A stretch of 64,000 nucleotides of DNA from a virus (Duplodnaviria; Heunggongvirae; Uroviricota; Caudoviricetes; Crassvirales). The stretch covers positions 1 through 64,000 of IMG/VR virus record IMGVR_UViG_3300032053_000036; one strand, given 5' to 3'. Position 1 is the stretch's first letter; each line of letters begins with the position of its first letter. The notes beneath the pieces are model-generated. The model did no database searches. It was not told where the DNA came from and saw only the letters and a program-made list of their open reading frames with translations. Positions 3,018 to 55,400 of the stretch are shown piece by piece. A program made the translations under genes and the position numbers.

Positions 3018-3037
3018 GGTTGTGGGGTTTTAATTGT

Positions 3038-3796
3038 TTACATTGTTTTGAACATTTCAAATAGTCTACCTGATTCTTGTGTAGCAAGAGCAAACCTGGT
3101 TTTATTTCTTTTTATCTTCTTGATGAATAGATCATGATCATATGAACTTATAGATCTTCTAAATTTAACATACTCACTACACAAATATCTATTCTCAAAT
3201 CTGCTCATACGATTAACAATCTTTAAAAGATCTGTTAATTGCTTAACTATTTCTACGTTTTGTTTCTCATCTATAATTCTGAATTCTCCTCTTTTTATCT
3301 TTCTTGAGGTTGATCCACCAGATCCTGCCATTCCTCCAGATAGGATATCAGCAAGGATACTGAACTCAAAATCATAAGTAGATTGATATTCGTTTAGCTT
3401 TATATAATCCTCAATCAAAGATGCCCATGCTGTAACATAATCTTGTATAGACCAATTCTTAGAACTTGCATTTAATAAAGCAAGAACCTCAATTAATTCT
3501 TTAGGATCTTTAATAGGAATAAGTACGTATGGAATATCTACGTTGTTCCTAAGGCATGCAGTGAACATGTGCTGACCATCAATTATATACTTGGTCATTC
3601 TTCCTGTAATAAAACTTAGTTCAGCAACAATTACAGGTCTCAATATATCTATTTTGCTAATAGACTCAGCAATAGGATTTACATGAGATGAAACGATTGG
3701 TCTGTTTATACCAGACAAAATACTTAACGCTTTTTTAGAACCTGCTTTCAACCATTTAATGTTTCTTAATGGTGATTTACTTAATAATGCTTTCAT
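3038..3796 (-). CDS. ParB/sulfiredoxin-fold protein with a DGQH motif (252 aa); ParB-like nuclease or DndB-like DNA-binding family.
   Basis: Segment KYIIDGQHMFTACLRNNVDIPYVLIP matches the ParBc/DGQHR-type core (Y-h-h-DGxH-x-x-A-x9-IP). There is a basic C-terminal half. Confidence 0.5.
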   Translation of the reverse strand: MKALLSKSPLRNIKWLKAGSKKALSILSGINRPIVSSHVNPIAESISKIDILRPVIVAELSFITGRMTKYIIDGQHMFTACLRNNVDIPYVLIPIKDPKELIEVLALLNASSKNWSIQDYVTAWASLIEDYIKLNEYQSTYDFEFSILADILSGGMAGSGGSTSRKIKRGEFRIIDEKQNVEIVKQLTDLLKIVNRMSRFENRYLCSEYVKFRRSISSYDHDLFIKKIKRNKTRFALATQESGRLFEMFKTM

Positions 3797-39013: not shown

Positions 39014-39027
39014 TAAATAATTAAACT

Positions 39028-39909
39028 ATGTCAAAAGTAATAACCATAAAATTAACAAAGGCAGGATCAAGAACTGGTCCTTTTGATGTAACAGATAACT
39101 TTGGTGACGTCTTAGGAACTTCTGTTCCTAAGAGTTCTCTTATTGCAGGGCTTACAGTTACAATAGATGATGGTGTATCTGTTATAATAATAAAGTCTGT
39201 AAAGGGATGTGGTACAAACTGCGAGGTGGAAATAAGAATTCCTATTACACAGCTTACAATATTAGATGTTGTAGGACTTACGTTCACCAATACAAACACT
39301 GCATCACTCTGGAGACATCTTACAAACCCAAGGATATACAACTACTATTATAATACAATATATCCTTACATAATAGAATATCCTTTTACATATCAGTTCA
39401 ATGATGAAATCTTACAGAATGTAAAAGACTACACTAAGGCATATCAATATCTTGACATGCCTGATGGTGTATGGAATTACAATAATAGAATTGAGACAGA
39501 TGATGTTTGGTTTAACAAAGCTGTTCTATATAATGGTCAGCAGTCTTCTGGTGTGTTAGAACTTGTTCCTAAACCATTACGTAATCTCAGTGAATACATG
39601 AAATATCCTATTTACAACACTGATAGTAAAACAATCACTTACACAAAGAGTGATAACTTCTATCAATACAATACATTCTGGTCTTTGGTGAAAGACAAAA
39701 GAACACCTATGTTTGTAACAGACTGTTGTTCAACTCTCTCCTTGGATAAATTAGTGAACCAACCAAACATGGACTATGGAAAAAGATCATTTAAGAAGGA
39801 ACCTCTAAGAGCAAAAGAATTAAAAGTAAGACACATATTAGATAATCGCTCAGATGCACATTTAACTAGTCAGTTCATTGTGACTCCAGCACAAATCTCT
39901 TATAAATAA
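39028..39909 (+). CDS. Tail accessory protein (293 aa) whose N-terminal module is shared with 25746..26915.
   Basis: MSKVITIKLTKAGSRTGPFDVTD versus MTVTITLTIAGADTGPFLLFSD. Confidence 0.45.
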   Translation: MSKVITIKLTKAGSRTGPFDVTDNFGDVLGTSVPKSSLIAGLTVTIDDGVSVIIIKSVKGCGTNCEVEIRIPITQLTILDVVGLTFTNTNTASLWRHLTNPRIYNYYYNTIYPYIIEYPFTYQFNDEILQNVKDYTKAYQYLDMPDGVWNYNNRIETDDVWFNKAVLYNGQQSSGVLELVPKPLRNLSEYMKYPIYNTDSKTITYTKSDNFYQYNTFWSLVKDKRTPMFVTDCCSTLSLDKLVNQPNMDYGKRSFKKEPLRAKELKVRHILDNRSDAHLTSQFIVTPAQISYK

Positions 39910-42764
39910 TGCCTGACAAAAAACCCAAATATCAAACTCTGCCAGGAGTAATTATAAACGCTAAGCGTAAGTATAAAACGCTTCCAGGAATCACTGTGAA
40001 CGCTAAGACTAAAAAGAAAGCATCAAGTACAACAGATTGGAAGATGACTCCTTCAAGAAATGTATCAGAGTCTACATCTCCAGCATCAACAAGACTTAAG
40101 CAAAATATTGAATTAGAGAATGATGTTGATCAGTATAAAAGAATGAATCGTGATGGGCTGAAAGAAATATCAAAAGAAGATTTTAATAATATCCCAGAAC
40201 GTGATACTAGATCTTGGTGGAGTGATTCTAGAGCAAAAGAAAGAGGGGATGCTTTTTGGAATGGTACAAAAAAAGTAACAGCAGTTGGTCAATTTTCTCC
40301 TGAGCCAGTATCAAGATATTCATCAATTGCATTAAACTCATTAATGGGAGCAGCAGATACATACTTCTCAATAGAAGATGGTGATCTTACTAATGCAAAA
40401 ATTAATGCAATTGGAGCAATTCCTCTTCCAGGATATGGTAGCATTAAAGCATTAAAAAATGTGCCAGGTCTTAGCAATAGACAAAAACTTAGTATATTAA
40501 AAACATCCTTGTCAACACTTGGAGTTGATTTATTTGGAACAGTTGCAGATCTTACAGATAACTTTGGTCTTGAACAACAAAAGAATGGTGGAACTTCTAG
40601 CAAAACAGTAACTTGTACATGTGGACATTCCTGGGATAAATCAGATTCTAGTAAGAAGGATGCAACAGTGTGTCACATCTGTGGAAAGAATAATATGAAA
40701 GATGGTGGTTGGTTAGATAAATATCAAGATGATATCACTCCTGCTAAAGCTCAGAAGGGTAATAAAGTTATTATAGATGGAAAGGAGTATGATACAGATA
40801 GTAATGAGTATAGAAATATGCTTGATAAGGGACAAGTTGGTACAATGAAAGATGATGTTTGGTATGGTAATAAATCAGAACTTCAACCAGTTACAATTTA
40901 CAGTAGTAAAGATAAAAACACTCAAAAGTTTTATGATAGATTAAAAGATGAAAATGGTCTTACAACTTATGAATCATTATTAAAACTAGGAGCAAAATAT
41001 GGAGCTCCTCATGTTACTATAAAAGATAAACCTGGTTTTTTTGATCCAAAGTATACTAATTACCCAGATAGAGTAAGACCTCATTACGATCCTCTTTCTC
41101 AAAATATAACTTTAGGAAATGATCCTTATACCTGGTATGATGAATATATATCAGAATTAGCACATCAAAAACAATTAATGAATAAAGGAGCTTTAGATTT
41201 TGTAATGAGAGGTGTAGAAAACTTTCCTCGTATTGTAAAAAATAAAATTGATCCAAATAAAAAAGGTTATAATGAAGAATATGATATTCCAGGATCTATA
41301 GAATATGAAGCTCATAAAAAAATTGAACCTGAATTAATAAAAGAATTTGATGATATATGGTATAAAAAATCTTATGAGGGAGATTATTATGAAAAGCCTG
41401 GTACATTTAGTTCATCTAAACCTAATGCAACATTTAAATCAGGAGGTTGGTTAGATAAATACGGTAAAGAAATAAACGCTAATGAAGGACGTTCTTCTGC
41501 TCCAGAGAACTGGGTAGGAGAAGGATATAGTAATGTAGGTAGAAACTATTCTCCTGCATGGGGTGGACAGTTTGCAATGGGAGGTTCTCTTCCTGGTTCT
41601 GTAGGATTCACATACGCACGTACACAAGACGCTGCTCCTGTTAATGGTCCTTATGCTAAGAAGACAAAAGCTTCTGCACAGAATGGACAAGTGCCTTACA
41701 ATATAAATGATATACAATCAGAACTTCGTAATTTTATTAAACAAGGAGAAAAATTAAAAGAATACCCTAATATAAAAACAAATATATACAAAAATAAATT
41801 ACTTACAGATAAATTGAATAATTTAAATAATAGTATACCTAACTATTCAACTGTTGTAAAAAAACAAAAAGAAGGTGGAATAATAGAAGATGATAGAGGA
41901 CAATGGGCACATCCTGGAAAGATAACAAAGATCAACTCTAATCAAATAACAATGAAAGGTGTGGACTATCCTGTACTAGGAATATCAGATGCAGGTGATC
42001 AACAAATGATGTACCCAGAACAAGAATATACATTTAAAGGAAAGAAGGTTACAGAATTCCCTATGGCTCAAGATGGTACAAGGATGCCCATATATACAAC
42101 AGATCCTAAAAAGATACAGGCATATGCTGATAGTTTAGCATTACACAATATATCATTAAATTGTTTTAATTTAACTAAAAAATTTGCTGAAACACTTGGA
42201 AAAGGAAAAGATTATAATAAATCTGTATTAGCACAGAAAGCAGCAAATGATGCAGAACTATGGAGAACTGATGTTACAAATAGTTATAATAACCTTTCTA
42301 GTTTAAATAAAAAAGAACCTACTCCTGTAGAACGTATAGAAAATATTCCTCTAAGTGAACAAGAGAAGAAAGGTTGGGATATTCATGGGATTTATTCAGC
42401 TGAGCTATATAAAAAACCAGTACAGCCATATATACTAAAAAAAGAAGAAGAACCTACATTAAAAAGAAAACCTGTAAAGGTGGAAACTATAAAGTCTAAG
42501 TCTGCAAGCACACCAGGTTTAAAAACTATACCAGGCACTCCTGTAGAACAACAACCTGTTCCACAGAGAGGAGAATACAGAGTGAGCTATTACAATCCTG
42601 ATATAAAAGATTGGAGTGAACAAGCGTTCCAGACAGAAAAAGAAAGTGAAAAGTTTGCTAGTGAGATGAGTGGACGAGGATATGGAGGTTCATATGGCAA
42701 TGTCACTCAAACTAGAAAAGTTAACAAAAAAGAGAATGGTGGTTGGTTAAGTCAATATAAATAA
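39909..42764 (+). CDS. Cargo/ejection-type virion protein 1 (951 aa) with a zinc ribbon and GGWL(D/S)xY repeats.
   Basis: CTCGHSWDK...CHICGK ribbon, GGWLDKY x2 plus a C-terminal GGWLSQY, GAIPLPGYG motif, Lys-rich composition. Confidence 0.45.
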   Translation: MPDKKPKYQTLPGVIINAKRKYKTLPGITVNAKTKKKASSTTDWKMTPSRNVSESTSPASTRLKQNIELENDVDQYKRMNRDGLKEISKEDFNNIPERDTRSWWSDSRAKERGDAFWNGTKKVTAVGQFSPEPVSRYSSIALNSLMGAADTYFSIEDGDLTNAKINAIGAIPLPGYGSIKALKNVPGLSNRQKLSILKTSLSTLGVDLFGTVADLTDNFGLEQQKNGGTSSKTVTCTCGHSWDKSDSSKKDATVCHICGKNNMKDGGWLDKYQDDITPAKAQKGNKVIIDGKEYDTDSNEYRNMLDKGQVGTMKDDVWYGNKSELQPVTIYSSKDKNTQKFYDRLKDENGLTTYESLLKLGAKYGAPHVTIKDKPGFFDPKYTNYPDRVRPHYDPLSQNITLGNDPYTWYDEYISELAHQKQLMNKGALDFVMRGVENFPRIVKNKIDPNKKGYNEEYDIPGSIEYEAHKKIEPELIKEFDDIWYKKSYEGDYYEKPGTFSSSKPNATFKSGGWLDKYGKEINANEGRSSAPENWVGEGYSNVGRNYSPAWGGQFAMGGSLPGSVGFTYARTQDAAPVNGPYAKKTKASAQNGQVPYNINDIQSELRNFIKQGEKLKEYPNIKTNIYKNKLLTDKLNNLNNSIPNYSTVVKKQKEGGIIEDDRGQWAHPGKITKINSNQITMKGVDYPVLGISDAGDQQMMYPEQEYTFKGKKVTEFPMAQDGTRMPIYTTDPKKIQAYADSLALHNISLNCFNLTKKFAETLGKGKDYNKSVLAQKAANDAELWRTDVTNSYNNLSSLNKKEPTPVERIENIPLSEQEKKGWDIHGIYSAELYKKPVQPYILKKEEEPTLKRKPVKVETIKSKSASTPGLKTIPGTPVEQQPVPQRGEYRVSYYNPDIKDWSEQAFQTEKESEKFASEMSGRGYGGSYGNVTQTRKVNKKENGGWLSQYK

Positions 42765-42787
42765 TTAATTTTAATAAAATTTGCCCA

Positions 42788-45700
42788 ATGGTAAAAAAGT
42801 TTTTAAAAATAGCAGGTGTTAAGACAGAACAAGAGTTCTATAATAAATATCCTTCAGAGGGTGCTTTCTTTAAAGCTCATCCTGAGGCCAAAGATTTTAA
42901 ACAGTATAAGCAAGGTGGTCAGATGAAAAAGCTGAACCAACTCACTAACTGGACTAATGATGTAGACAACATGATTCCAACAGCCCAATATGGTTGTAAG
43001 GGAAAGAGTTGTACACAGACAGGAGAAGGTATAAAGAAACATGATAGTAGACTTGGTCTTGATGATACTCATTCTGGTAGTGGTGGTTTTATAGACTATG
43101 CTGCATATAATGCTCCTAGTACATGGGAAGAACTTCAAACATATAACGAAACTAATCCCAAGGACAAAGCTTTTAAAAATCAGCTCAAAACTTTACAGGG
43201 TCAGTTTCCAGGATTGACACAACAGCAAATGCTTGCTGCTGGTGCAGATTCTGCTAGAATCAGACAAAGAATGGGAAACCTTCCTAGATATGATAAGCCT
43301 GAAGAACAGACATATGATAAAGCATATCATCAGTTTTACAGACCATTGATGGATCAATCGAAGCCTGTAACCATTCCACAAATCCTTCAGTTTCAGTCTC
43401 AACAGCCTGGTGGACTAGAAGGATATGAAGGAACAGTAAGAAGTAACTATGGTAAAAAGAAAGCACAGAATGGTGCTCCTATAGGAAGCTATATGTCTTC
43501 TCCTTCCTATGAAACTAAAATGATGAACTTCTCAGAATACATGAATCCTGTAGATAAGATGATTACAGGTTCTACACAGGAAGAAAGAGATGCTGCAGCA
43601 AAGAAACAAGCTGAAGATGCTGCTAAACAAAAATCTGGTGGAGGTGGAGGATTAGGAAACATATTAAATATGGCTAGTCAGTTTATGGGGAAAGGTGCAG
43701 GAGGAAGTGATATGGGTGCAATAGGTGCTTCTGCATTAGGTGGTGTTGGTAAAGGAAAGAATGGTCTTAAAAGAGCACAGATAGGTCTTAATCAACCACA
43801 GAACGGATCTATGCCAAGTAATAATAATCCATATATGTATAATAGTCTTCAACCACTTGGAGGAAGTCAACAGGCTGTAACGAACCCTTATCAAAATCCT
43901 CTAATGCTTGATCCTAATCAAACAGGAACATTTGAACAACAAGTAGCTGGGTCTGCAGGAGCTGTAAATCCAAAAAAGAAATTTAATCCTCTTGGAGCAA
44001 TTCCTATTGCAGGACAAATATTTGGTGGTATACAACAAATTAAAGCAGCTAAAACAGCAGAGAAAGAAGCTAATAAGCAATTTCAACTTAGTGGTCTTAC
44101 TAAACAAGCAGGTCTCACAAGAGGAGAACCTATCAAAAGGAAGTATGTAAGACCAGAAGATCAAGTTATAAATGAAAATGAAATGTTTCCTACATATGGT
44201 GTAGGAACAAACTATATAGCTGAAGATGGTGCTGAGGTTACAAGAGGTGGTATAGGTGGTAATCCTACAGAGATTCAAAACATGTACAACCCTTATGATC
44301 TATTCAAAGACCTTGGTTATGAATCTCTTGAGGATTCTGAGAGAGTTAAACAATATCAAGGTGGTGGATTAGTGAGTGGTTCTCAGTTTGGTCAAATAGG
44401 CAATCAACTTGGTGCTATGGTAGGTGGTGGAGGACAAGGTACTCCTGGAGGATGGAGTCAGGCATTGGGTGCTATTCCTGGTCCAATAGGAATGATAGGT
44501 GGTATGGTTGGTTCTGTAATAGATGGAAAACAACAAGCTAAAATTAGAAACTTCCAAGAAAGAGCTCAGAAGAATGTTGTTGATACAGCAATGCAACAAG
44601 GTATGCAGAATGTACAAAGTCAATATTCAAATGTGATGGAAGATGGTGGATATGTAAGTCATGATTGGCAGCCACAAGTGATTTCACAATTTGATGGTGT
44701 TCCTATTAAGAGTCTTTTAACAAAAGATCCTATGATGGATACATTGAGAACTGGTGGAAACATTACACAAAATAATATGTTCTCTACAGATCAATACGCT
44801 ATGGGTGGGGAATTGAAAACTACATGGGGTGGATATGCAGAACCTATATCACACAATCCTTATCTCCCAGGAACAGGAGAAACTGTGATGTTCAGAGGTA
44901 AATCTCATGAAGAAGGTGATGGTAATGGACATACAGGAATAGGAGTTAAGTATGGTGGAGGAGACCATGATAGCTATACAGACTATGCTGAATATGGTAC
45001 AGAGCAAGCTGATGCTGATGTTGAAGTTGAAAGAGGTGAGCCTGCTCAAGAAATGATGGACCCTCAGACAGGGGAAAAGAACATGGTGGTATATGGTAAC
45101 CTCAAAATACCAAACCAATACCTTTCTGAGATAGGAGATCCAAAAGCTAAAGGTAAGAAGTTCAAAAACTACGTAGCTGATCTCTCTAGACAGGAAGCAA
45201 GACATAATAAAACAGTAGAGAAAAACATGAACACAGTTGATGAAATGGATGACATTACATCATTTGATCAAATGAAGTTCTTGTCTGCTAAAGCAAACAT
45301 AGATGGAGCTAATATGAAACTAAAAAATATTGCTGAAAAGAAAATGAATGCTTCTGCTGTGCAGAATGCAATCAATGAAGCTGCGCAAGAGCATGGCTTA
45401 GATGCTGATTCTCTAGCAAAGGGTAAGTTCAGGATTGACAAGAAAGCTATGGATGAATCTGCTAAATGGGGAAAGAGTATTAAGAAAGCTCAGAATGGTA
45501 CAACTGAGGGTAATTTTGTAGGACCAACTCCTACTGATTATTTAGATGGTCTATATGAGCAATCTAAAAATGAAACAAATAAAAACCTTCGTAAGAAATA
45601 CACTGAGATATTTCAAAAGGAATTTCATAGATTTTATCCTGAACAAGCTAAAGAAATAATTCTAGGTTCTTCAGATGTTACCACTAAAGGTAAAAAGATG

Positions 45701-46699
45701 GGTATTAAGAATGTAGATCAGCTTGGTAAAAAGGATGATAAAACTATACTTAATACAAATGTTGATGGTATATTTGGAGATAGAACAGAACAATATCATG
45801 CTATAGCAGAAGATTTTAGAAAACCTTACACACCAACAACTATACCAGTTCCTGGAACATCAGTTACAAAAACAACAACAGATCAAACAACACACTATCC
45901 TGTCACTCCATATAAAGGAAGTAAGTTAATGGATGCATATAGTCAACTTATTCCTTACTTAAGACCTTCAGATCAAGAAGCTCTTGATCCAACACAAATG
46001 TATGGAGAGATGTATGCATTAGCTACCAATCAGTTAGATCCTGTACAAGCTCAAAAGTATAATCCTTTATTAGAACAACCTTATGACATATCTCTACAGG
46101 ATCAACTAAATGCTAATCAAGCAGACTTCAATGCTATCCAAAGACAAACAGGATATAATCCTGCAGCTGCTGCAACCTTAGCAGGTCAGAAATATGCAGC
46201 CAATAGTAAAGTGTTAGCAGATCAGTTTAGAATGAACCAAGGTATGAAAGCTGAGGTTTATAATAAAAACAGAGGAACATTAAACGATGCTCAACTCAAG
46301 AACCTTGGAATCCTTGATCAACAGATGGTTAGACAAGAAACAGCTAAGTCTAGAACTAAAGAAGTGGGACAAGCAGCTCTTAATTCTATATCTGATAAGA
46401 TCTTGAAACAGAAGCTTGCTAACAGAACATTAAGTATATATGAGAATATGTACAACTACAGATTTGATAAGAGTGGTAGAGCAGTTAATATGAACCCTGC
46501 ATTCCAGCCAAACATACCAAATGTTCTTCCTGTGTACGATGATCAAGGTAATGTTGTAGCATATCAGAAAGGAACCACCACTACAAATCAAACAACAGCA
46601 ATTCCTCTACCACCACTAGCTCTTCCTACAGGTGGTAAAAATGGAACTAAAGTTCCTAGTAGGAATAGAGATATTTTAAGAGCAATGAAGAATCTCTAA
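42788..46699 (+). CDS. Cargo/ejection-type virion protein 2 (1303 aa), Gly/Gln/Asn-rich.
   Basis: Poly-Gly tracts and two GAIP glycine-zipper-like segments. Confidence 0.45.
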   Translation: MVKKFLKIAGVKTEQEFYNKYPSEGAFFKAHPEAKDFKQYKQGGQMKKLNQLTNWTNDVDNMIPTAQYGCKGKSCTQTGEGIKKHDSRLGLDDTHSGSGGFIDYAAYNAPSTWEELQTYNETNPKDKAFKNQLKTLQGQFPGLTQQQMLAAGADSARIRQRMGNLPRYDKPEEQTYDKAYHQFYRPLMDQSKPVTIPQILQFQSQQPGGLEGYEGTVRSNYGKKKAQNGAPIGSYMSSPSYETKMMNFSEYMNPVDKMITGSTQEERDAAAKKQAEDAAKQKSGGGGGLGNILNMASQFMGKGAGGSDMGAIGASALGGVGKGKNGLKRAQIGLNQPQNGSMPSNNNPYMYNSLQPLGGSQQAVTNPYQNPLMLDPNQTGTFEQQVAGSAGAVNPKKKFNPLGAIPIAGQIFGGIQQIKAAKTAEKEANKQFQLSGLTKQAGLTRGEPIKRKYVRPEDQVINENEMFPTYGVGTNYIAEDGAEVTRGGIGGNPTEIQNMYNPYDLFKDLGYESLEDSERVKQYQGGGLVSGSQFGQIGNQLGAMVGGGGQGTPGGWSQALGAIPGPIGMIGGMVGSVIDGKQQAKIRNFQERAQKNVVDTAMQQGMQNVQSQYSNVMEDGGYVSHDWQPQVISQFDGVPIKSLLTKDPMMDTLRTGGNITQNNMFSTDQYAMGGELKTTWGGYAEPISHNPYLPGTGETVMFRGKSHEEGDGNGHTGIGVKYGGGDHDSYTDYAEYGTEQADADVEVERGEPAQEMMDPQTGEKNMVVYGNLKIPNQYLSEIGDPKAKGKKFKNYVADLSRQEARHNKTVEKNMNTVDEMDDITSFDQMKFLSAKANIDGANMKLKNIAEKKMNASAVQNAINEAAQEHGLDADSLAKGKFRIDKKAMDESAKWGKSIKKAQNGTTEGNFVGPTPTDYLDGLYEQSKNETNKNLRKKYTEIFQKEFHRFYPEQAKEIILGSSDVTTKGKKMGIKNVDQLGKKDDKTILNTNVDGIFGDRTEQYHAIAEDFRKPYTPTTIPVPGTSVTKTTTDQTTHYPVTPYKGSKLMDAYSQLIPYLRPSDQEALDPTQMYGEMYALATNQLDPVQAQKYNPLLEQPYDISLQDQLNANQADFNAIQRQTGYNPAAAATLAGQKYAANSKVLADQFRMNQGMKAEVYNKNRGTLNDAQLKNLGILDQQMVRQETAKSRTKEVGQAALNSISDKILKQKLANRTLSIYENMYNYRFDKSGRAVNMNPAFQPNIPNVLPVYDDQGNVVAYQKGTTTTNQTTAIPLPPLALPTGGKNGTKVPSRNRDILRAMKNL

Positions 46700-46715
46700 T
46701 CAATTCAATTATATA

Positions 46716-46751
46716 AGATTACCAGAAATTGTTATGGTTTTTGGTAATCTT
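46716..46751. repeat. Perfect 9-bp inverted repeat AGATTACCA...TGGTAATCT with an 18-nt spacer.
   Basis: Read directly in the gap between the cargo genes. Confidence 0.4.
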
Positions 46752-46786
46752 AATTCATTCAGTTACATTTGATAACATAATTTAAG

Positions 46787-49474
46787 ATGGCATCATTTAC
46801 AGATACAGTCCCCCAATTTAACCCATTTGTTGATCAATTGCCTATAGATGCAATGGTTAAGGTGGGCACGTACAAGCAAGAGAAGTATGATCAGGGCATT
46901 CAAAAAATTCAAGGATACATAGATAACATCGCTGGCCTTGATATCTATAAAGATATACATAAAGAATATCTCCAATCTAAACTTAATGAGCTTGGTAACA
47001 ATCTAACAAAAGTGGCAGGAGGAGATTTCTCAAACTTCCAATTAGTCAATTCTGTCTCAGGAATGGCAACACAAATTTCTAAAGATCCTGTTATACAAGG
47101 TGCTGTAAACTCTACAGCTAAAATAAGAAAGAATTTCCAAACAATAGAAACTGCTAAAAAAGAAGGAAAGTCTTCTATTCAAAACGAAGCATGGTTTAGT
47201 GACCAACTTAACAGCTGGGCAAATGATGGAAATATAAAGTCTTCATACTCAGGAGAATATGTACAATACACTGATATGGAGAAGAAGCTTAGAGAAGTGG
47301 CTGAAAAAGTTCACGAAGCTGATAACTCTATAGAAATTCCATTTAAGAGAGACAATAAAGGAAATACATTATATTATAAAAGAGATCCAAATACAGGAAG
47401 AACATCTGTGTCTACAGATCCTAACTCAGGAGGAGTCACTCAAATAGATGATGCAATTCTTAGTATCAAAACAAAAGGTAAGTCTGCAGATAAAATTCTA
47501 TCAAACTTTTATGACAGCCTTGATGAGAACGATAAGAGACAATTAAAAATAGATGGATGGTATCATTATAAAGGTTCTACACAAGAAACATTTATAAAAG
47601 ACGCTACAACAAACTATAATGCAAATATAAAGATGTTGTCTGATAAGATTGTCACTCTTAATACAGAACTACAAACTAATACAAAACTAACACAAGCTGA
47701 AAGATCAAAAATACAAGCAGTGATAAATGACACTGATAAAACTCTTACTAATGGTAGTCTTGAGAAAGATCTGCAAAAACAGTATGATGATATAACTGCT
47801 TCTAAAGATGTTGAAGACTATAAGTATAAATTGTATACACAAACATTCTTAACCAATCTTGCCAAGGACATATCATATCAAGACATTCAACAGGAATATA
47901 AAGCCAACCCATATGAACAAGCAGACAATAGAAGAAAAGAACTGCAGTTCAAATACGATGATGCAAGAAGACAACAAGCTAATTCAGATCGTACATTTAT
48001 GTGGGAGAAGACTAAGTTTTTTACAGAACAAATGCAAAAAGCACAAGCTGCAACAGGCTCTCAACCTATTGTTACTCCTGGAAGTCTTCCAACAGATATA
48101 AATGCACCAGATATTAGCAAACTAGATAAAGAAATTATGGGTATTGCTGGAGATCCTTCTACAAAAACTCCTGGGGCAATTGATAAATTAAATGCTGACT
48201 ATGCTCCATTATTAGCAGATAAGTCTTTAAAAACTCCTGAGCAAAAACTACAATATTTAAATAACTTAGCTAGCACTTATGCAAAAGATCCATCTAGCAT
48301 TAATGGAATCAAAGATCCAAACTTAAGAGAATACCTTGAGAGAAGGAGGGCTTTTGACATAATGCTTGGGCAAAAACAAAATCTTTATGCAGCTACAGTA
48401 AATGCATCTAAATCTTTTGATGATCAATTAAATAATGTTTTTTCTAAGGATAAAGCAATTGCTGATAGAAATGGTAAAGTTATATTCTCTCCAAGAGAAA
48501 TATATGAAGTTGTTAAAGATGTAAAAGCGATGCAAGTGGGAGCATCTTTTGACTATGACACTTTTTTAAAAAAATATCAAGGAACAAAAAAAGAAGCAAT
48601 TGCAAGAGCTTATGTTAAGAATGCTCAAATAAATGAAGCAATTAGACTTGGAGATGTAAGATATGGTAGACCTAATGCACCTGAATTAACAGCCACTGAA
48701 AAATCTATTTTAGAAATAGGTACAAGTACAATAAACACTAGGGATGCTGATGTTAGTAATATTCTTAAACAAAAACAAAAATTTCAATCTGACTATCTTG
48801 CTAAAAGAATGCCTGAGAGACAAACACAAATTGGAACATTAAGTGCTGACAATAAAATTGATATGGATCATGTTAATCAATTGATTGGAACTAAAATAAA
48901 AGAACATTCTACATATGGAACAATTGATGGTCTTAGAGATGAAGACGACTTTGATCCAGAAACTGTTGGAGAACTTCAAGGAGAAAAGGATGTTAAATAT
49001 AATATAGAAAAGAAATACGATGGTTCTGCAACTCTTACAGTGTTTGCTAAAGGAAAAACTCAAATTATTCCAATGAACAGTAATGAGTTTGCTTCTTTCT
49101 TTCCAAACTATCGCAAGAATAATCCTATCAACGATATCAAACAGACTGTTTTTGGTTCTCCAAATTACACAACAAATCTTCTTGGTGGAAAAGATTCATC
49201 AGCTGCAGTGAATGCTTATATGAGTGGGTATGATATTCCTAATTTAACTAATACAATACTTGCACCATTAGTAAGACTTGATGTTGAAGGAAGTCCTTTT
49301 AATGATGGTGGTGCAAATGATAAATTTGTTGTTAGAATGTATGTAAATGACAATGGTCAATGGAAAACAGATATTGTAACTCAAGGAGGATATGTTTCAG
49401 AAGCAGCTGTTCAACAGGTTATTAATAATATAGGTGCAACTACAGTTTCAGATTTACTAAAGAAAAACCCATAA
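46787..49474 (+). CDS. Cargo/ejection-type virion protein 3 (895 aa), coiled-coil rich.
   Basis: Position and composition. Confidence 0.45.
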   Translation: MASFTDTVPQFNPFVDQLPIDAMVKVGTYKQEKYDQGIQKIQGYIDNIAGLDIYKDIHKEYLQSKLNELGNNLTKVAGGDFSNFQLVNSVSGMATQISKDPVIQGAVNSTAKIRKNFQTIETAKKEGKSSIQNEAWFSDQLNSWANDGNIKSSYSGEYVQYTDMEKKLREVAEKVHEADNSIEIPFKRDNKGNTLYYKRDPNTGRTSVSTDPNSGGVTQIDDAILSIKTKGKSADKILSNFYDSLDENDKRQLKIDGWYHYKGSTQETFIKDATTNYNANIKMLSDKIVTLNTELQTNTKLTQAERSKIQAVINDTDKTLTNGSLEKDLQKQYDDITASKDVEDYKYKLYTQTFLTNLAKDISYQDIQQEYKANPYEQADNRRKELQFKYDDARRQQANSDRTFMWEKTKFFTEQMQKAQAATGSQPIVTPGSLPTDINAPDISKLDKEIMGIAGDPSTKTPGAIDKLNADYAPLLADKSLKTPEQKLQYLNNLASTYAKDPSSINGIKDPNLREYLERRRAFDIMLGQKQNLYAATVNASKSFDDQLNNVFSKDKAIADRNGKVIFSPREIYEVVKDVKAMQVGASFDYDTFLKKYQGTKKEAIARAYVKNAQINEAIRLGDVRYGRPNAPELTATEKSILEIGTSTINTRDADVSNILKQKQKFQSDYLAKRMPERQTQIGTLSADNKIDMDHVNQLIGTKIKEHSTYGTIDGLRDEDDFDPETVGELQGEKDVKYNIEKKYDGSATLTVFAKGKTQIIPMNSNEFASFFPNYRKNNPINDIKQTVFGSPNYTTNLLGGKDSSAAVNAYMSGYDIPNLTNTILAPLVRLDVEGSPFNDGGANDKFVVRMYVNDNGQWKTDIVTQGGYVSEAAVQQVINNIGATTVSDLLKKNP

Positions 49475-49477
49475 CCA

Positions 49478-52400
49478 ATGCCAATTTTTGATAAAGAGCT
49501 TATAGATAATATTTCTAATAGAGAAAATGTACTTCCTAATATGCCACTTGGTTCTCCTGTTACAAGGGAACTTAATACTGACATGGGAGGATATGGACTT
49601 GAAACTGATTCAAAAGGAGGATTGACAATTGATCAATTATCAAATATTAAAGCTAGTAATAGTACAGGATTTGATTCTCCTTTTCAAATGATTCCTAAGA
49701 GTGAACTCTTGTCAAATCAAAGATACTCAATGTATGAAAGAGACAAAGATCTTGAAAATACATATGGGTTACAACAAGGAGCATTGTCACAGCTTGGTAA
49801 TGGTGTTGTTAAAATGGCTGCTACACTTGGTGGAACATTCTTACAGGGGTTTGCAACTATTCCTAATACAATCGCTTCTTTCAAAGGAGGAGTTAAAGAA
49901 CTATCTGGTGTTGAAGGATATGAATCTGATATAGATAATTGGTTAAAGAACATAGAAGATAGATTCCCAAACTATGTAACAAAAAAAGAACAAGAACATC
50001 CTTTCTTAGCAGCTATTCCTGGATTTGCAGGAAGTGCTAATTTCTGGGGAGATAAGATTATTAAAAACATTGGTTTTACAGTGGGTGCTATTGGCAGTGC
50101 CTTAGTACAAGATGCTGTTGTGGGATTTGCTACAGAGGGTCTTGGAGAGATTCCATTAGTTGCAAATCAAATTGGTAAAGCTTCACTATATTTAAATAAA
50201 CTTTTTACAGGAACAAACGATATTGAAAAAACATTACAGATTGCAACATCTTTAGGAAAGAGTGAAAAGGCAATGTTGAATATAAAAAGACTTGGAGAAC
50301 TTGCTGCTGCTGAAAAAGTAAGTAATGGGTTTAGATATGGATTGAATATATACAGTTCTGCAAGAACAGAAGCTGCTATTGAGGCTAGAGATGGATATAG
50401 ACAAGTTAAAGAAATATTAACCACTCAATACAAAGAAGGAAATTTAGGAGAAGAACCTTCAGGAAAAGATCTTACAGACATTGAACAATATGCAACAGAT
50501 GCTATGAATACTAGATTTGGTATTAACATGGCTATCCTTACAGTGAGTAATGCTTTTCAATTTGATAATCTATTTAAGTCTGTTAGTAATGGAGCTACTA
50601 CAAAAGGTGTAGGTTCAGGACTTATAAAAGATATTCAAGATGCTGGTAAGGTAGGTCTTAAGGAAGGATCTTTAGATGTATTTGAGAAGAAACTTCCAAC
50701 AAGCTTTATGGGTAAAGTTTGGGAAAGTGTTAAGCCTAAAACAGCAAGTATATTCAGAGAGGGTGTATATGAAGAAGGTGGACAGTATGCTGCTGAGCGT
50801 GGTACATATGATTATTATACAAGAAAGTATAAAGATCCAAAAAGAAGAGAAAGTATAGATAACTGGAATACACTAAATGAAGTTATAGATTCTACAGTTA
50901 AGGGTCTTAATGATCAGTTTGGTACCACTGAGGGTATAGAGAATATGTTGATTGGTGGTATATCAGGAATGTTGATGGATGCAGGAATGCAAACATATGA
51001 TAGAGCTAAAGGTAAAGGAAAAGATAAGAGATTGGACACTGCAGTGAGTCTACTTAATAGATATGGTCTTACAGGAATTCTTGGTCAAAAATATACAGAT
51101 ACATTAAACTCTGTAAACATTGCACAGGAAATGACTAAAGCTGCTAGAACAGGTAATGTGTTTAGATATCAAAATCTAAAAGATGACATGTTCTTTGGAT
51201 TTGTTAATTCTAGACTTGGATCTAACATGCACGATGTAACCATTGAGCAGTTAAGAATGTTGAAAGATCTTGATAAGGAGGAGTTTGAAAAAACCTTTGG
51301 AATGAACTTCAGTGAATCAAACAAATCTACTGTTGGTGAATATGTTGATGGATTGATAAGTAAAGCAAATGAAATAAAGAAAATCTCTGATTCTGTAAAT
51401 AATACATACAAGAATGTTTTCACTTTCTATGATGATCCTGGAGATGATCAAGATAAAAAAGAAAGTAATAAAAACTACAACACATTTGAGACCTGGAAAA
51501 CAAACCTCATCTATGAAGGTAGTGTTATGAAAAACACAAACCAGAGATTGGTTGATGTACAACAATCTCTTAGTAAGATAAATCCCCTTATAACAAATGA
51601 TCTTGCTAGTAGATTGATGGATGAAGATTCTCTTAGAGAACTTAGTCAAGATTATGAAGAACAAGCCAAAACACTTCTTGGTACATTGAATGATGCTATG
51701 TCATTTGATGAGAGAAGAAAAGTTAAAGAGCAGGCTAAACAATTACGTACAGCATCAGAGATAGCAATGATGGCTGCTAATGATGGACAAATTTCGCAGA
51801 AAGATTTTGCAAAAATTCTTAATTATGAATTAAATGGTAGAGATGGCTCTAAAGATGATGTTGTCACTATAGATAGAGTTAACGACATTCAAACATTAGG
51901 ACACGATATCAATATGATTAATGCTAGAAAGAAAGATGCATCTAATGCGTTTGAAATTCTTTCTAGTGAAAAAGGTTTTGAAAAGTTTTTCAAAGATGAA
52001 AACGATATTGCAGCAGCAGCAGAAAAAGCAGCCTTTGATAGAGAGGAGGTTAAGAAAAGACCTCTTCCAGAATTTACAAATGTTGGAGGTGTAAAAGAAG
52101 CAATACAACTTGAAAGAGAATACCAAGCTCAACCTAAGAAAGGATCTAAGGTTAGAAAACTTGCTGCAGATAGATTTAGAGTTATAGATCCTGATGGTAA
52201 GGTGACATTCTACCCAACTAGAGAAAAGGCTCAAGAGGCAGCTGCTGATATTGATCTTAGATACACTGAGCTCTCAAAGATTAAAATACTTGCTGTTAAT
52301 GCTGATGGTACAATTAAAGTGCAAGATGTTAAAGGTAACATCCAAAACATTGGATTAGGAGAACTTGAAGGATATGAAAAGATAATCACTGAGCAAGAAA

Positions 52401-55400
52401 GACTACAACAGTTTGCTGATCAGATGAAACAAGATCAAGAAGATATAGAAAAATCTTCTGGTGTAGTGGGTACAAATCCTTCTGATGAAGAGACTGTTGT
52501 ATGGGAAGATAAAAAAAGAGATATCTCTCATTTATTCAATGGAGGAATTACAGAATCTGAGAGATGGGAGAATCCTGAAGGATCTCCTATTCATATTCAG
52601 AACTCTAGATATTTCTTAAACAATGCAAGAAACTTTCCTAATAGAGCAAACCTTAGAGCAATTCTTATTCCTGCTACACATGAGGCAGCGTTTGGTTTAG
52701 CAGGACTTACAGCCATCTCTTATAAATCAGAAGAGAAAGATCCAACTAAAATTCCTGGTGCCACTGATCCTAAAACAGGATTCATAGCTCAGGTATTTGT
52801 TGAACAAGATGGATCAGATGTTTACTTTGTAGACAAAGAAGGAAATAGAATTGGTAAGCTTGGAGAAGCTATAGATATTGAAAAGGTTATATTCCAAGCT
52901 ATGCCTGCAGCATCATTAGAATATAGTGATGGTAGTCCAAGATATAGAAATAGTCAGGCAGCAGACGCTGAAGTTTATAAGAAGGCGTGGGAAATAAAAA
53001 GAGAAAGATTATTTGGTGCAACTCCTGGTACATATCAACTTTATACATTCAAGATATCAAGAGGTATAGCAAGAGAGATTAAGATAGATGGTAAACTTGA
53101 AAGAAATCCTATATCAGATATTCTTGTTGACATGAATCTAATTCCTACACAGGAAGGACTAATACAGATATCAACAACAGGAAACCTTGCTCACCAGGGA
53201 GAACAATTAAACTTTCCTAAAGGAAGACCTATTCTTCAATTTGAAGATGTATTTGTTCCTTTGAACAATAGAAAGTTTACAGCAAATGAGGCTGAAACAA
53301 TATTTGAACTTCTCAACAGGATTGGTAAAGAAACAGTTAGACAGTCAAAGCTTCCTGGAGGTCCTGCAATAAGAACTAATAGAAGGTATGCTAGATTCTT
53401 ACAAGGATTGTTGTTCTGGAAATCAGACATCACTGGAAAGAAGAATCCTAACAACATGTACATCAATGAGAAAGAAGGTAATCTCTATCTTGGTGGAGTA
53501 GCTTATGATCTTACAAATCTTGAAGCAAGTAAAACTGCTATAGTAGATCATCTTAAAGCAACATATAATAATATAAACAATAGTCATCTAACTGAAACGT
53601 TCAGTGAACCATTTGTTGAATACAGAATGGAGAATGGAAACCTTGTAGAAGTTGAATGGCAAAACTATCAAACATACCTTTTATCAAAAGAAAATCCTGA
53701 TGGTTCTTCTAGAGGAATAGAGAACATCCCATTAGTTACATCTGTTCAAAAAGCAACAAATACATTACAACCTTTTGAACAAAAGTATGCTATCATGGAA
53801 GACCTTGAACTTCCTATAGCAGAAGTACCAAAGCCTGAAACAAAAGTTTCTACAGATGGTAGTGGAGCTGTTGAAGTTGATGGATTTAAAATAGATGGTT
53901 CAGTACAAATCTATAGAGAATTTAATGCTGGTCCAGTTGAATTTACAGCCACATTAGATAAAGATGGTTTTATAGAAACAGACGTTAAAGATGGTGATAC
54001 AGTCAATGCTCTTGCAGGTAGCGAGAAGACAATGAATGATGTAATCATTGCAACTCTAAAAGCTCTAGGTAAACTAGATGAAAAAGCTCTTGAGGCTAAT
54101 GATAATGTAAGACTTGTAAAAGATTTCTTAGGACTTAAGATAGCAGTGGATCTTCAGGCTAAATTAGATGCTGCAAAAACAAAACCAACATCTACAGCAC
54201 CAAAAGCTTCTGCTCCTATTGAGATAAGTTCTAATGCTAAAGGATTTGGAGCTGTTCTTACAAACCCTACAGAGATTGCTAGTAGTAAGAAGAACGTAAC
54301 CAATGTAGTAAATATTAAGAAGACATATGGTGATAAGTATAAAATCTTAAAAAGATTTGTAATAGGAAGAGGAATTGTTGATGTATCAGTAACAGATACA
54401 ACAAATGCTGCCTATCCTATAGAATTTGAAGGTCAGTTATATGCAGACGCTGAAGCAGCATATCAAGATCAAAAAACTAAGTATTCAAATAAGACCAAGT
54501 CTGCAGGATCTACGTATGATCTTATGGTGAAGATTCTTACAGCTAAGCTTCAACAATATCCTCAGATGATTGATGAGATTAAGAAACAAGGTGGTACACC
54601 ATGGTTATCAAAGGCTGTACATCAACCTACTAATAAGAATAGTGTATGGGAAACAGGTGGTCAGAACTGGTTTGTATTAAGCTTAGTTGATGCATATACG
54701 AAAGTTCTTCCTACAACTCCTGAAAAAAAGGATGATGATAAGAAGGAACCACCAACACCCCCTCCCCCTCCTGCTCCTTCAGGACCTGCTCCAACAGTAA
54801 CATTTGAGGGAGAAGATACTCCTGATGATGCATTCAGAAAGCTCTCTAAAGGAAAAGAAAGATCTTGGAGAACTACACAAGGAGATATTGAGATATTCAA
54901 GAAATGGGTTGCTGAAAATGCTCCAGGGATCCCTTATGAGATTCTTGAACAAATGATTGATACATATGATGGAGAGAAAGCTTGGGGTGTATACGAAAAT
55001 GGTATAGCTAAGTTTTTCAAAGGTGGATTAAGAGGTACAGAATACCATGAGGTATTTGAAGCTATATGGAAACATTTCCTTACAGACTCTGAGAAACAAG
55101 CAATTATTGATGAGTTTAGAACAAAAGCTGGGAAGTTTACAGATAGAGAATCTGGAAAGAAGTTTAACTATGATGATTCTAGTGTAACTGATAAGATGAT
55201 TAAAGAAAGAATTGCTGATGACTTTGCTGATTTTAGATTGGGTAAAATACCTGCTACATCTCTTGGTGGAAAGATTATGCAATTCTTCAAAAGGATTATA
55301 GACTTTATTAAATCTTTCTTATTCAAACCAGATCTTAAAACAAAACTGTTCCAACAAATAGATACAGGAAGATTCAAAACAGCTACACTACAGATTACAA

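What the first reader, a model, noticed from the sequence alone, without database searches (positions are those of the whole stretch)
40408..50045. Shared [L/G][GA]AIPx(x)G glycine-zipper-like motif across three consecutive cargo proteins
NAIGAIPLPGYGS appears in the 951-aa protein at about 40408. PLGAIPIAGQIFGG at about 43990 and ALGAIPGPIGMIGGMVGS at about 44461 appear in the 1303-aa protein. FLAAIPGFAGSANFWG at about 50003 appears in the 4402-aa protein. Each sits in a Gly-rich hydrophobic stretch. This suggests a common membrane-insertion or channel-forming element, or a shared virion-docking signal, for ejected proteins.
Basis: seen in the sequence. Interest (0 to 1): 0.55.

Follow-up and report, generated by a model that had tools for sequence, protein, structure and literature searches.

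The report
Chance motif over real glycine zippers
The four "GAIP"-like strings are really there but are not one shared signal; they lie in four unrelated sequence contexts, and the one relevant to membranes is the glycine-zipper segment of a distant relative of crassvirus cargo protein 1, a feature already proposed to insert into the host membrane.

Summary
All four quoted peptides exist at the stated places. As a shared motif they do not exceed chance: 85% of shuffles give an equally surprising 4-mer, window similarity scores stay below shuffled maxima, and profile comparisons give under 1% probability. The proteins are not consecutive, because a motif-free 895-aa ORF separates the 1303-aa and 4402-aa proteins.

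Each site does sit in or beside the most hydrophobic stretch of its protein.
- **p951**: G-A-x-P is the signature (P in 34 of 35) of an undescribed mobile ~140-aa module, not a zipper.
- **p4402** is a gp47-like N-terminus fused to the virion RNA polymerase. "AAIP" is limited to one subclade, and the conserved part is the downstream "SANFWGDKxIKNxGFxxGA" helix.

This is a new member of a known kind, of low to moderate interest.

The parts
39909..42764 (+). p951: a mosaic (polyvalent-type) presumed virion cargo protein lying between the muzzle-like genes and the C1 homologue.
   Evidence: ORF list. Orthologues range from 286 to 1725 aa and share only some modules. Relatives carry SET, SLT, amidase, LysM/YkuD and Zn-peptidase-like segments; these were assigned by reading the sequences, not by a family scan.
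40191..40604 (+). The p951 'GAxP module' (aa ~95-232), a conserved mobile domain of about 140 aa: D.R..SDSRAKERG ... GQ..P.P..RYPS.A.NS.MGA.DAY ... N..GA[ILVMAF]P.PG ... DLTDNFG.EKKKNGG.
   Evidence: Exhaustive phmmer found 35 cluster representatives. Alignment and column counts give G169 27/35, A170 31/35 and P172 34/35. No Pfam hit. The module is absent from the orthologues in L014 and L016 and present in L017.
40404..40442 (+). Quoted string 1, NAIGAIPLPGYGS (p951 aa 166-178), which is the signature motif of the module above.
42738..42761 (+). C-terminal GGWLSQYK of p951. Internal copies lie at aa 266-272 (nt 40704-40724) and aa 512-518 (nt 41442-41462).
   Evidence: GGWLxx[YFL] sits at the extreme C-terminus in 13 of 14 orthologues and also occurs internally, and occurs almost only in this protein family.
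42788..46699 (+). p1303: a divergent homologue of crassvirus cargo protein 1 (C1, phicrAss001 gp45).
   Evidence: - Foldseek BFVD hits to 'Cargo protein 1 compact domain-containing' proteins, E 6.3e-7.
- Collinear weak HMM and hhalign matches.
- Same gene position as gp45.
- At least 798 homologues.
43985..44116 (+). p1303 site 1 (aa 400-443): a short Gly-rich hydrophobic stretch (contains quoted string 2, nt 43988-44029) followed by a conserved basic helix G[IF]QxLKxEK.
   Evidence: Column counts out of 121: G409 95, G414 108, K419 82, but P406 only 33. It is the hydrophobic maximum in 24 of 121 homologues. AF2 gives coil followed by a helix at aa 410-443, with pLDDT below about 60.
44420..44629 (+). 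p1303 site 2 (aa 545-614): a Pro-capped glycine zipper (core aa 559-580, containing quoted string 3, nt 44462-44515) followed by a long basic helix.
   Evidence: - Column counts out of 121: G561 107, G565 84, P566 112, G571 109, G575 111, and Gly 99 at column 579; P564 only 13.
- It is the hydrophobic maximum in 85 of 121 homologues, and GxxxGxxxG is present in 115 of 121.
- Pfam glycine-zipper hits are found in homologues.
- It resembles gp45 aa 131-158, 'GASVGGPIGAIVGGVVGLGSAIGGWLGG'.
44813..45247 (+). [quoted passage not shown]
46787..49474 (+). p895: the intervening ORF with no motif and no hydrophobic segment. It sits where C2 (gp46) would be, but no homology to gp46 was detected.
49478..62686 (+). 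p4402: a giant polyprotein made of a gp47-like N-terminal region fused to a virion RNA polymerase core (aa ~2815-3624, nt 57920-60349).
   Evidence: blastp of gp47 69-524 against p4402 84-512, E 1e-20. gp50 against p4402 2815-3623, E 3.7e-29. PDB 6vr4 (phi14:2 RNA polymerase), E 8.5e-19.
50003..50182 (+). Quoted string 4 (nt 50003-50050) and the conserved hydrophobic Gly/Ala-rich helix that follows it (aa 186-235), SANFWGDKxIKNxGFxxGAxxxA.
   Evidence: Column counts out of 36 (3 rows are gaps at these columns): P181 27, I180 17, A179 9; N188 32, N197, G199 and G203 33 each. The helix is conserved as far as crAss001 gp47, 'SANFIGDKFLKNLGFAVGAA'. The hydrophobic maximum of the whole protein lies at aa 200-218. 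The AF2 model is uninformative (pLDDT 38).

Best explanation
**Setting.** The window is the structural and cargo module of a freshwater crAss-like podophage.

**Overall reading.** The four [ILV][GA]AIP strings are a coincidence of preferred residues and codons, laid over four unrelated features.

**1. p1303.**
- p1303 is a divergent cargo protein 1 (C1, phicrAss001 gp45).
- It has two Gly-rich, marginally hydrophobic segments. Each is followed by a long basic helix.
- The second segment is a Pro-capped glycine zipper (G-x3-G-P-x4-G-x3-G-x3-G with I/V/L/A between the glycines). It corresponds to the predicted transmembrane helix of gp45.
- Inferred mechanism:
  - The protein is kept soluble and largely unfolded inside the tail and capsid.
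  - It is extruded N-terminus first at infection.
  - The zipper helices then self-associate through their glycine faces and insert into the host envelope, helping to form the conduit for DNA and the RNA polymerase. This is analogous to T7 gp14 and N4 gp52.

**2. p951.** The string is the G-A-x-P signature of an undescribed mobile domain of about 140 aa. The domain is found in mosaic cargo proteins and inside some C1-like proteins. It is probably a small folded adaptor, not a membrane element.

**3. p4402.** The string is a subclade-specific linker in front of a conserved hydrophobic helix in the gp47-like N-terminal domain of the giant RNA-polymerase polyprotein. The role of that helix is unknown.

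**Shown versus inferred.** Shown: the anatomy, the conservation patterns and the homology to C1, gp47 and gp50. Inferred: membrane insertion and channel formation.

**Confidence.** About 0.85 that the four sites are unrelated and that p1303 is a C1 homologue. About 0.45 that the zipper works by membrane insertion. The single figure given is a blend of the two.
For: **No shared element.** Shuffle and window-score controls. Profile-profile probability below 1% between contexts. Different conserved columns at each site.

**crAss-like identity.** The portal matches phicrAss001 gp20 (7qog_A), E 1e-32. A gene just upstream of the muzzle-like gene in the related locus L017 hits CrAss_Ring_1. The related contig L014 comes from a freshwater metagenome.

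**p1303 is C1.**
- BFVD Foldseek hits to C1 compact-domain proteins, E 6.3e-7 and weaker, and to crAss002 gp30 'putative transmembrane protein'.
- Three collinear weak profile matches.
- Synteny muzzle -> C1 -> ... -> gp47-like.

**The zipper.**
- Sites 1 and 2 hold the hydrophobic maximum in 109 of 121 homologues, and GxxxGxxxG is present in 115 of 121.
- P566, G571 and G575 are each present in at least 109 of 121 sequences.
- Pfam glycine-zipper matches are found in homologues, one above the gathering score.
- Canonical Crassvirales C1 proteins have their hydrophobic maximum in the same kind of segment: crAss001 'VGGPIGAIVGGVVGLGSAIGG', IAS virus 'AAAIPGPWGAVASAGLNVAGG', DAC17 'SNIPGIGGVIGAGVNVLGG'.
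- Published proposal that the gp45 TM helix (136-158) inserts into the membrane as T7 gp14 does (PMC10172136).
- N4 gp51 and gp52 form channels in bilayers (PMC13434306).
- Neither site is in a globular core.

**p951 module.**

**p4402.**
Against: - No segment reaches classical transmembrane thresholds. In the window KD is at most 1.55, and the Hessa and Wimley-White sums are unfavourable.
- The window's own zipper gives no Pfam hit and lacks a strict GxxxGxxxG; it reads G568-G572-S576-G580.
- AF2 models the zipper as low-confidence coil, not as a helix.
- Sequence-level homology to gp45 is weak. The Pfam PF25725 HMM does not hit p1303, a PDB profile search finds nothing, and the hhalign probability is 22% at best.
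- Membrane insertion has not been shown experimentally for any crassvirus C1.
- No dedicated TM predictor was available.
Confidence: 0.6

Rival explanations
1. [L/G][GA]AIPx(x)G is a single functional element, either a membrane-insertion or channel element or a virion-docking signal, shared by the three cargo proteins.
For: The strings exist, and each lies in or near the most hydrophobic part of its protein. The nominal Poisson P is 2e-8 for the post-hoc pattern. In the p951 module G-A-x-P is nearly invariant. IAS virus C1 has 'AAAIPGPWG'.
Against: - The pattern was defined after it was seen, and shuffles give equally surprising 4-mers 85% of the time.
- There is no significant similarity between windows or between profiles.
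- In p1303 the conserved proline is P566 (112 of 121), not P564 (13 of 121).
- [GA]AIP occurs at either p1303 site in 10 of 121 homologues or fewer.
- In the p4402 family the motif is replaced by 'WYS..PDN' in the other clade and in crAss001 gp47.
- p895, which lies between the proteins, lacks it.
Confidence: 0.04
2. The Gly-rich segments of p1303, and the p4402 N-terminal helices, are flexible and easily unfolded hinges. Their role would be to let very large proteins thread through the portal and tail channel ('beads on a string'), not to enter membranes.
For: AF2 gives low-confidence coil at both p1303 sites. Glycine content is high. Partial unfolding during extrusion is proposed for crassvirus cargo (PMC10172136), and a beads-on-a-string architecture is proposed for N4 vRNAP (PMC13434306).
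Against: The spacing of the glycines is periodic (i, i+4). The positions between them are conserved as I/V/L/A/M/F rather than the polar residues typical of linkers. These segments are the hydrophobic maxima of the family. Pfam glycine-zipper models, which describe membrane helices, match them.
Confidence: 0.2
3. The glycine zippers drive tight helix-helix packing of many C1 copies inside the virion, for example a 12-fold bundle or plug in the tail barrel or portal channel. On this reading they are an assembly or gating element, not a host-membrane element.
For: In phicrAss001, gp45 residues 1-245, which include the zipper at 136-158, are assigned to the tail barrel in about 12 copies. A helix at 214-245 binds the barrel wall (PMC10172136). 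Glycine zippers are general motifs for close helix packing (own knowledge).
Against: No density was assigned to the zipper in the virion map. This reading does not exclude later membrane insertion, so the two roles could be sequential.
Confidence: 0.2

Closest known systems
Crassvirus cargo protein 1 (C1; phicrAss001 gp45, PDB 7QOG chain M; Pfam PF25725 crAss_CARG1)
   Same: - Same gene position, after the muzzle gene and before the gp47-like gene.
- N-terminal Gly-rich hydrophobic glycine-zipper segment(s), each followed by a basic helix.
- A similar C-terminal helical region.
   Different: - 1303 aa against 842 aa.
- Sequence identity is too low for the Pfam HMM or PDB sequence searches to detect.
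- The zipper lies at aa ~545-580 rather than 136-158, because of a long extra N-terminal region.
- The window's zipper is less hydrophobic (KD 1.55 against 1.73).
- An additional mosaic protein (p951) and a 293-aa ORF lie between the muzzle gene and C1.
Transmembrane glycine zippers (Pfam PF13488 Gly-zipper_Omp, PF13441 Gly-zipper_YMGG, PF05433 glycine zipper 2TM; microcin V PF17508)
   Same: A periodic G-x3-G-x3-G pattern with small or aliphatic residues between the glycines. One homologue passes the PF13488 gathering score and several give sub-threshold hits.
   Different: The window's own segment gives no Pfam hit and has Ser at one rung. It is embedded in a 1303-aa soluble virion protein rather than in a small membrane protein or lipoprotein. 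Membrane location is unproven.
Podophage ejection proteins that form envelope channels (T7 gp14/gp15/gp16; N4 gp51/gp52; P22 gp7/gp20/gp16)
   Same: They are packaged inside the virion and ejected before the DNA. They carry hydrophobic helices thought or shown to insert into host membranes (PMC8954989; PMC13434306).
   Different: No sequence or fold similarity was detected. Those proteins have several strongly predicted TM helices. p1303 has one or two marginal glycine-rich ones.
phicrAss001 gp47 (RNA-polymerase-associated cargo) and gp50 / phi14:2 gp66 virion RNA polymerase
   Same: p4402 aa 84-512 is homologous to gp47 aa 69-524 (E 1e-20), including the 'SANF.GDK..KN.GF.VGA' helix. p4402 aa ~2815-3624 is homologous to gp50 and to PDB 6VR4.
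   Different: Here the parts are fused into one 4402-aa polypeptide. The 'AAIP' string just upstream of the helix is absent from gp47.
Polyvalent proteins of phages (Iyer et al. 2017, PMC5512222)
   Same: The p951 family consists of long mosaic proteins that combine variable enzymatic domains and are probably packaged in the virion.
   Different: The GAxP module and the GGWLxKY boundary and C-terminal motif were not found in that paper by the term searches run. Membership of the class was not formally tested.

Membership tests
Crassvirus cargo protein 1 (C1, gp45) | Compact portal-binding domain recognised by the Pfam PF25725 (crAss_CARG1) HMM | tested here: not met
   hmmscan of p1303 aa 660-880 at E up to 10 gives no PF25725 hit, while gp45 aa 425-553 scores 8e-67. 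Profile and single-sequence searches of PDB sequences also find nothing.
Crassvirus cargo protein 1 (C1, gp45) | The same fold as the solved portal-bound domain of gp45 | tested here: met
   - Foldseek BFVD hits to several 'Cargo protein 1 compact domain-containing' proteins, best E 6.3e-7.
- hhalign aligns p1303 695-838 with gp45 438-532, including the shared SHEE and VE.GE motifs.
- Caveat: the query is a predicted model, with pLDDT about 80-90 in that domain.
Crassvirus cargo protein 1 (C1, gp45) | Gene position immediately downstream of the muzzle gene and upstream of the gp47-like RNAP-associated gene | tested here: met
   The window order is p2839 (muzzle-like; blastp to gp44 2e-5), p293, p951, p1303, p895, p4402 (gp47-like N-terminus). 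It is not strictly adjacent to the muzzle gene, because p293 and p951 intervene.
Crassvirus cargo protein 1 (C1, gp45) | Predicted transmembrane, Gly-rich hydrophobic helix in the N-terminal part | tested here: inconclusive
   The zipper at aa 559-580 is the hydrophobic maximum (KD 1.55), just under the usual cut-off of 1.6. 22 of 121 homologues reach 1.6. No TMHMM or DeepTMHMM was available.
Crassvirus cargo protein 1 (C1, gp45) | Physical presence in the virion, in both the tail barrel and the capsid | not testable with these tools
   This needs virion mass spectrometry or cryo-EM.
Transmembrane glycine zipper (Pfam PF13488 / PF13441 / PF05433) | GxxxGxxxG periodicity with aliphatic residues between the glycines | tested here: met
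   For the family, 115 of 121 members have it, and the conserved columns are G561, G565, G571, G575 and column 579. For the window itself the pattern is degenerate: G568-G572-S576-G580.
Transmembrane glycine zipper (Pfam PF13488 / PF13441 / PF05433) | Score above the Pfam gathering threshold | tested here: not met
   The window segment gives no hit. Homologue P0041 scores 26.1 against a cut-off of 25 for PF13488. Other homologues score 14-18 bits, below threshold.
gp47-like RNAP-associated cargo protein (N-terminal domain) | Sequence homology to the phicrAss001 gp47 N-terminal region | tested here: met
   blastp of gp47 69-524 against p4402 84-512: 25% identity, E 1e-20.
T7 gp14 / N4 gp52-type ejectosome membrane proteins | Sequence or fold similarity, and several strongly predicted TM helices | tested here: not met
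   No PDB sequence hit. Foldseek against the PDB finds nothing at E of 1e-3 or below. Only one or two marginal hydrophobic segments are present. The comparison is functional analogy only.

The most novel reading that the evidence does not exclude
The cargo proteins of this lineage may be built from exchangeable modules that carry short address or boundary peptides.

- GGWLxKY sits at the extreme C-terminus of 13 of 14 p951 orthologues and between their modules.
- The related 'FGGWLNTQGG' opens the portal-bound domain of phicrAss001 gp45.
- Together with the GAxP module, this peptide could be a virion-packaging or portal-docking signal, or a processing site. It would load variable enzymatic payloads (peptidoglycan hydrolases, SET domain, peptidases) into the particle.
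- Separately, the Pro-capped glycine zippers of C1 would form the membrane conduit.

This would be a capsid-targeting code for crassvirus cargo, analogous to the T4 capsid-targeting sequence.
Probability: 0.15. Interest if true: 0.6.

Novelty: new member of a known kind. Interest (0 to 1): 0.27.

Why it matters
How crassviruses, which are short-tailed phages of Bacteroidota, get megadaltons of protein and 100 kb of DNA across the host envelope is unresolved. The only published hint is one predicted transmembrane helix in phicrAss001 gp45.

This analysis shows three things. That segment is a family-wide glycine zipper capped by a proline. It is conserved from gut Crassvirales to very distant freshwater relatives. 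It is accompanied by a second Gly-rich segment. This gives a precise and mutable target for testing the channel hypothesis: P566, and the Gly rungs at 561, 565, 571 and 575.

The analysis also removes a false lead, because the GAIP string is not a common signal. The by-products are leads for how cargo is addressed to the virion, but they go beyond the finding as written. They are the GAxP module, the GGWLxKY terminal motif, and the fused gp47-RNAP polyprotein.

Tried and rejected
- **Cultured-phage records.** Megablast and tblastn of p951 and p1303 against the INPHARED phage collection found no match.
- **Family libraries.** Pfam and PHROGs scans of p951, p1303 and p895 found nothing useful.
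- **PDB sequence searches.** Single-sequence and profile searches with p1303, p951, p895 and p2839 found nothing meaningful.
- **Word-indexed search.** The p951 N-terminal query returned nothing, although the exhaustive HMMER search then found 35 representatives.
- **AF2 of the p4402 N-terminus.** pLDDT was 38, so the model is unusable and cannot say whether the site is buried.
- **p895 as the C2 (gp46) homologue.** Not supported; the hhalign probability is 0.1%.
- **A DNA-level repeat behind the motif.** Rejected. There is only a 14-nt identity built from the preferred codons GGA GCA ATT CCT, which is expected by chance in 64 kb.
- **Internal duplication of p1303 site 1 and site 2.** Only weak support: probability 33% over 13 columns.
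- **Literature.** Searches for 'glycine zipper' together with ejection proteins, and for GGWL in phage papers, turned up nothing relevant.
Full report
**1. What the window is**

The + strand from about 10.9 kb onward carries a long run of large ORFs.
- PHROGs identifies a terminase, a portal, a major head protein and several virion structural proteins.
- The portal matches phicrAss001 gp20 (7qog_A, E 1e-32) and Crassvirales portals at about 25% identity.
- In the related locus L017, the gene just upstream of the muzzle-like gene hits Pfam CrAss_Ring_1.
- The related contig L014 comes from a freshwater metagenome.

This is a distant, environmental crAss-like podophage. No cultured-phage record matches the cargo region by DNA or protein.

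The gene order around the finding is:
- p2839 (30494-39013), muzzle-like: blastp to gp44 2e-5, and a match to phrog_15100
- p293 (39028-39909)
- p951 (39909-42764)
- p1303 (42788-46699)
- p895 (46787-49474)
- p4402 (49478-62686)

**2. Checking the observation**

All four quoted peptides exist, within a few bases of the stated coordinates. Two parts of the description fail.

First, the proteins are not consecutive. p895 lies between p1303 and p4402. It has no [GA]AIP and no hydrophobic segment; its maximum Kyte-Doolittle (KD) 19-residue hydrophobicity is 0.76.

Second, the motif does not exceed chance once its post-hoc definition is allowed for.
- GAIP x3 has a nominal P of 9e-5. However, 23 four-mers occur at least 3 times in these three proteins, and in 85% of composition-preserving shuffles some 4-mer is equally surprising.
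- The best ungapped BLOSUM62 12-mer score between any two sites is 30. Shuffled proteins reach 31-41.
- Profile-profile comparison of the four family contexts gives a probability below 1% for every pair except p1303 site 1 against site 2, which gives 33% over 13 columns.
- At the DNA level there is only a 14-nt identity, made of the preferred codons.

One part of the description holds. Each string lies in or next to the most hydrophobic 19-mer of its protein:
- p1303 560-578, KD 1.55
- p4402 200-218, KD 1.48
- p951 194-212, KD 1.16

**3. Conservation in relatives**

The comparison set was:
- thirteen syntenic IMG/VR loci at 36-49% identity
- three closer contigs
- 120 of at least 798 p1303 homologues
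- 22 N-terminal fragments of the giant protein
- 35 representatives of the p951 N-terminal module

*p1303 site 2*
- The conserved columns, out of 121, are G561 (107), G565 (84), P566 (112), G571 (109), G575 (111) and Gly at column 579 (99). Aliphatic residues lie between them.
- P564, the proline of 'AIP', is present in only 13 of 121.
- GxxxGxxxG is found in 115 of 121, and the family's hydrophobic maximum falls here in 85 of 121.

*p1303 site 1*
- The conserved features, out of 121, are G409 (95), G414 (108), [IL]411, [IL]418 and K419 (82). That is a short Gly-rich hydrophobic stretch running into a basic helix, G[IF]QxLKxEK.
- P406 is present in 33 of 121.
- This site is the hydrophobic maximum in a further 24 of 121 homologues.

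*p4402*
- '[AM][IV]P[GF]' is kept only in a subclade of at least about 50% identity.
- The other clade, which includes L014, L016 and L017, and crAss001 gp47 itself have 'WYS..PDN..TANF' instead.
- The invariant part is downstream: N188, F189, N197, G199, F200, G203 and A204.

*p951*
- The N-terminal 230 aa are absent from most orthologues.
- An exhaustive search shows that residues ~95-232 form a conserved mobile module. In it G169, A170 and P172 are present in 27, 31 and 34 of 35 sequences.
- So the literal motif is a real family signature only here. The context carries many conserved polar and aromatic positions, which suggests a small folded domain rather than a zipper.

**4. What the proteins are**

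*p1303 is a divergent cargo protein 1.* The AF2 model of aa 380-1303 has a mean pLDDT of 59, with confident domains at aa 676-880, 915-1010 and 1090-1210.
- By Foldseek against BFVD it matches several 'Cargo protein 1 compact domain-containing' proteins (best E 6.3e-7) and crAss002 gp30.
- Three weak but collinear profile matches link the two proteins: zipper to gp45 114-201, p1303 695-838 to gp45 438-532, and p1303 1083-1172 to gp45 642-745.
- The Pfam crAss_CARG1 HMM itself does not detect p1303, so the relationship is remote.

*Canonical C1 proteins share the segment.* Their hydrophobic maximum lies in the same kind of Pro-containing Gly zipper:
- crAss001: 'VGGPIGAIVGGVVGLGSAIGG'
- IAS virus: 'AAAIPGPWGAVASAGLNVAGG'
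- DAC17: 'SNIPGIGGVIGAGVNVLGG'

Bayfield et al. predicted residues 136-158 of gp45 as a TM helix. They proposed that it inserts into the host membrane as T7 gp14 does, with gp45 ejected N-terminus first from the tail barrel (PMC10172136).

*p4402 is a fusion.* A gp47-like region (E 1e-20 to gp47 69-524) is joined to a virion RNA polymerase core (gp50 E 3.7e-29; phi14:2 gp66, PDB 6VR4, E 8.5e-19).

*p895 has no detectable similarity to gp46*.

**5. Mechanism**

Shown:
- The two p1303 sites are conserved, periodic, marginally hydrophobic Gly-rich segments. Each precedes a long basic helix.
- Neither is in a globular core; AF2 gives coil with pLDDT below 50.
- Homologous segments match Pfam glycine-zipper models, once above the gathering score.

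Inferred:
- After extrusion these helices self-associate through their glycine faces and enter the host envelope to help build the conduit. This follows the proposal for gp45 and the bilayer results for N4 gp51 and gp52 (PMC13434306).
- The marginal hydrophobicity fits a protein that must stay soluble in the virion. In the window KD is below 1.6 and the Hessa and Wimley-White sums are unfavourable. The same numbers also leave room for the rival readings below.

Rivals:
- The segments are flexible hinges for threading through the channel.
- They are helix-packing elements inside the tail lumen.

For p951 and p4402 no membrane role can be argued from the data.

**6. Novelty and verdict**

The shared-motif idea is not supported. 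The real feature underneath, a glycine-zipper membrane candidate in C1, is a known kind seen here in a remote new member. This work adds detail on which residues are conserved.

Several by-products are worth recording: the GAxP module, the GGWLxKY terminal and boundary motif, the mosaic payloads of the p951 family, and the fused gp47-RNAP polyprotein. They are listed under things noticed in passing.

Noticed in passing
window 42738-42761 (p951 C-terminus); also 40704-40724 and 41442-41462; loci L001-L017: GGWL[DNS]x[YF] sits at the extreme C-terminus in 13 of 14 p951 orthologues (e.g. 'KKENGGWLSQYK*', 'KPQPGGWLNKYN*'). One or two internal copies appear to lie at module boundaries. Many proteins from the exhaustive search also begin or end with it. 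It is the second most surprising repeated 4-mer in these proteins. phicrAss001 gp45 has 'FGGWLNTQGG' at the start of its portal-bound domain (aa 425-552). It could be a docking, processing or module-boundary signal. No literature was found on it.
   Followed up: partly
window 40191-40604 (p951 aa ~95-232); proteins P0144-P0177: This ~140-aa module has no Pfam match. It occurs at variable positions in mosaic proteins. By reading their sequences, these also carry SET-like, SLT lytic transglycosylase, amidase, LysM/YkuD and Zn-peptidase-like segments. In P0155, P0160 and P0173 the module lies inside C1-like proteins. In P0155 and P0160 it sits between the glycine zipper and the 'G.SH..GG' portal-domain-like region; in P0173 it lies N-terminal to both. 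The architecture resembles the polyvalent proteins of Iyer et al. 2017.
   Followed up: partly
window 49478-62686 (p4402): A single 4402-aa ORF joins a gp47-like N-terminal region to a gp50 / phi14:2 gp66-like virion RNA polymerase core (aa ~2815-3624). In phicrAss001 these are separate genes on opposite strands.
   Followed up: partly
L014, L016, L017 against window 49478-50200: There is mosaicism between neighbouring genes. The loci whose p1303 orthologue is closest to the window (62-77% identity) carry the other type of giant-protein N-terminus ('WYS..DN..T.NF'). Loci with more distant p1303 orthologues (L001, L012) share the window's type ('A[AM]IPGF.GSANFWG').
   Followed up: no
window 42788-46699 and homologues P0070, P0108: Some p1303 (C1-like) homologues carry an inserted YkuD L,D-transpeptidase domain (PF03734) plus PF12200. 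This suggests that peptidoglycan-active payloads sit in C1 itself in some lineages.
   Followed up: no
L014 6150-6671: A 173-aa HNH/NUMOD4-type homing-endonuclease ORF is inserted between the 293-aa gene and the p951 orthologue in a close relative. Similar ORFs of about 173 aa are present in L008 and L010. It is absent from the window.
   Followed up: no
window 30494-39909 (p2839 and p293): p2839 aa 23-414 matches the N-terminal part of phrog_15100. The separate 293-aa ORF matches that profile's C-terminal end (profile positions 1588-1781 of 1783). The muzzle-type structural protein may therefore be split into two genes here. The 288-293-aa ORF is conserved in the syntenic loci where that region is covered.
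   Followed up: no
p951 aa 590 and 720; p1303 aa 226 and 901; orthologues: '[KS]AQ[ND]G' and 'x[QND]GG' peptides recur in p951, p1303 and their relatives, for example KKAQNGAP, KKAQNGTT, SAQNGQ and MAQDGT. AQNG is among the over-represented 4-mers. Their meaning is unknown.
   Followed up: no
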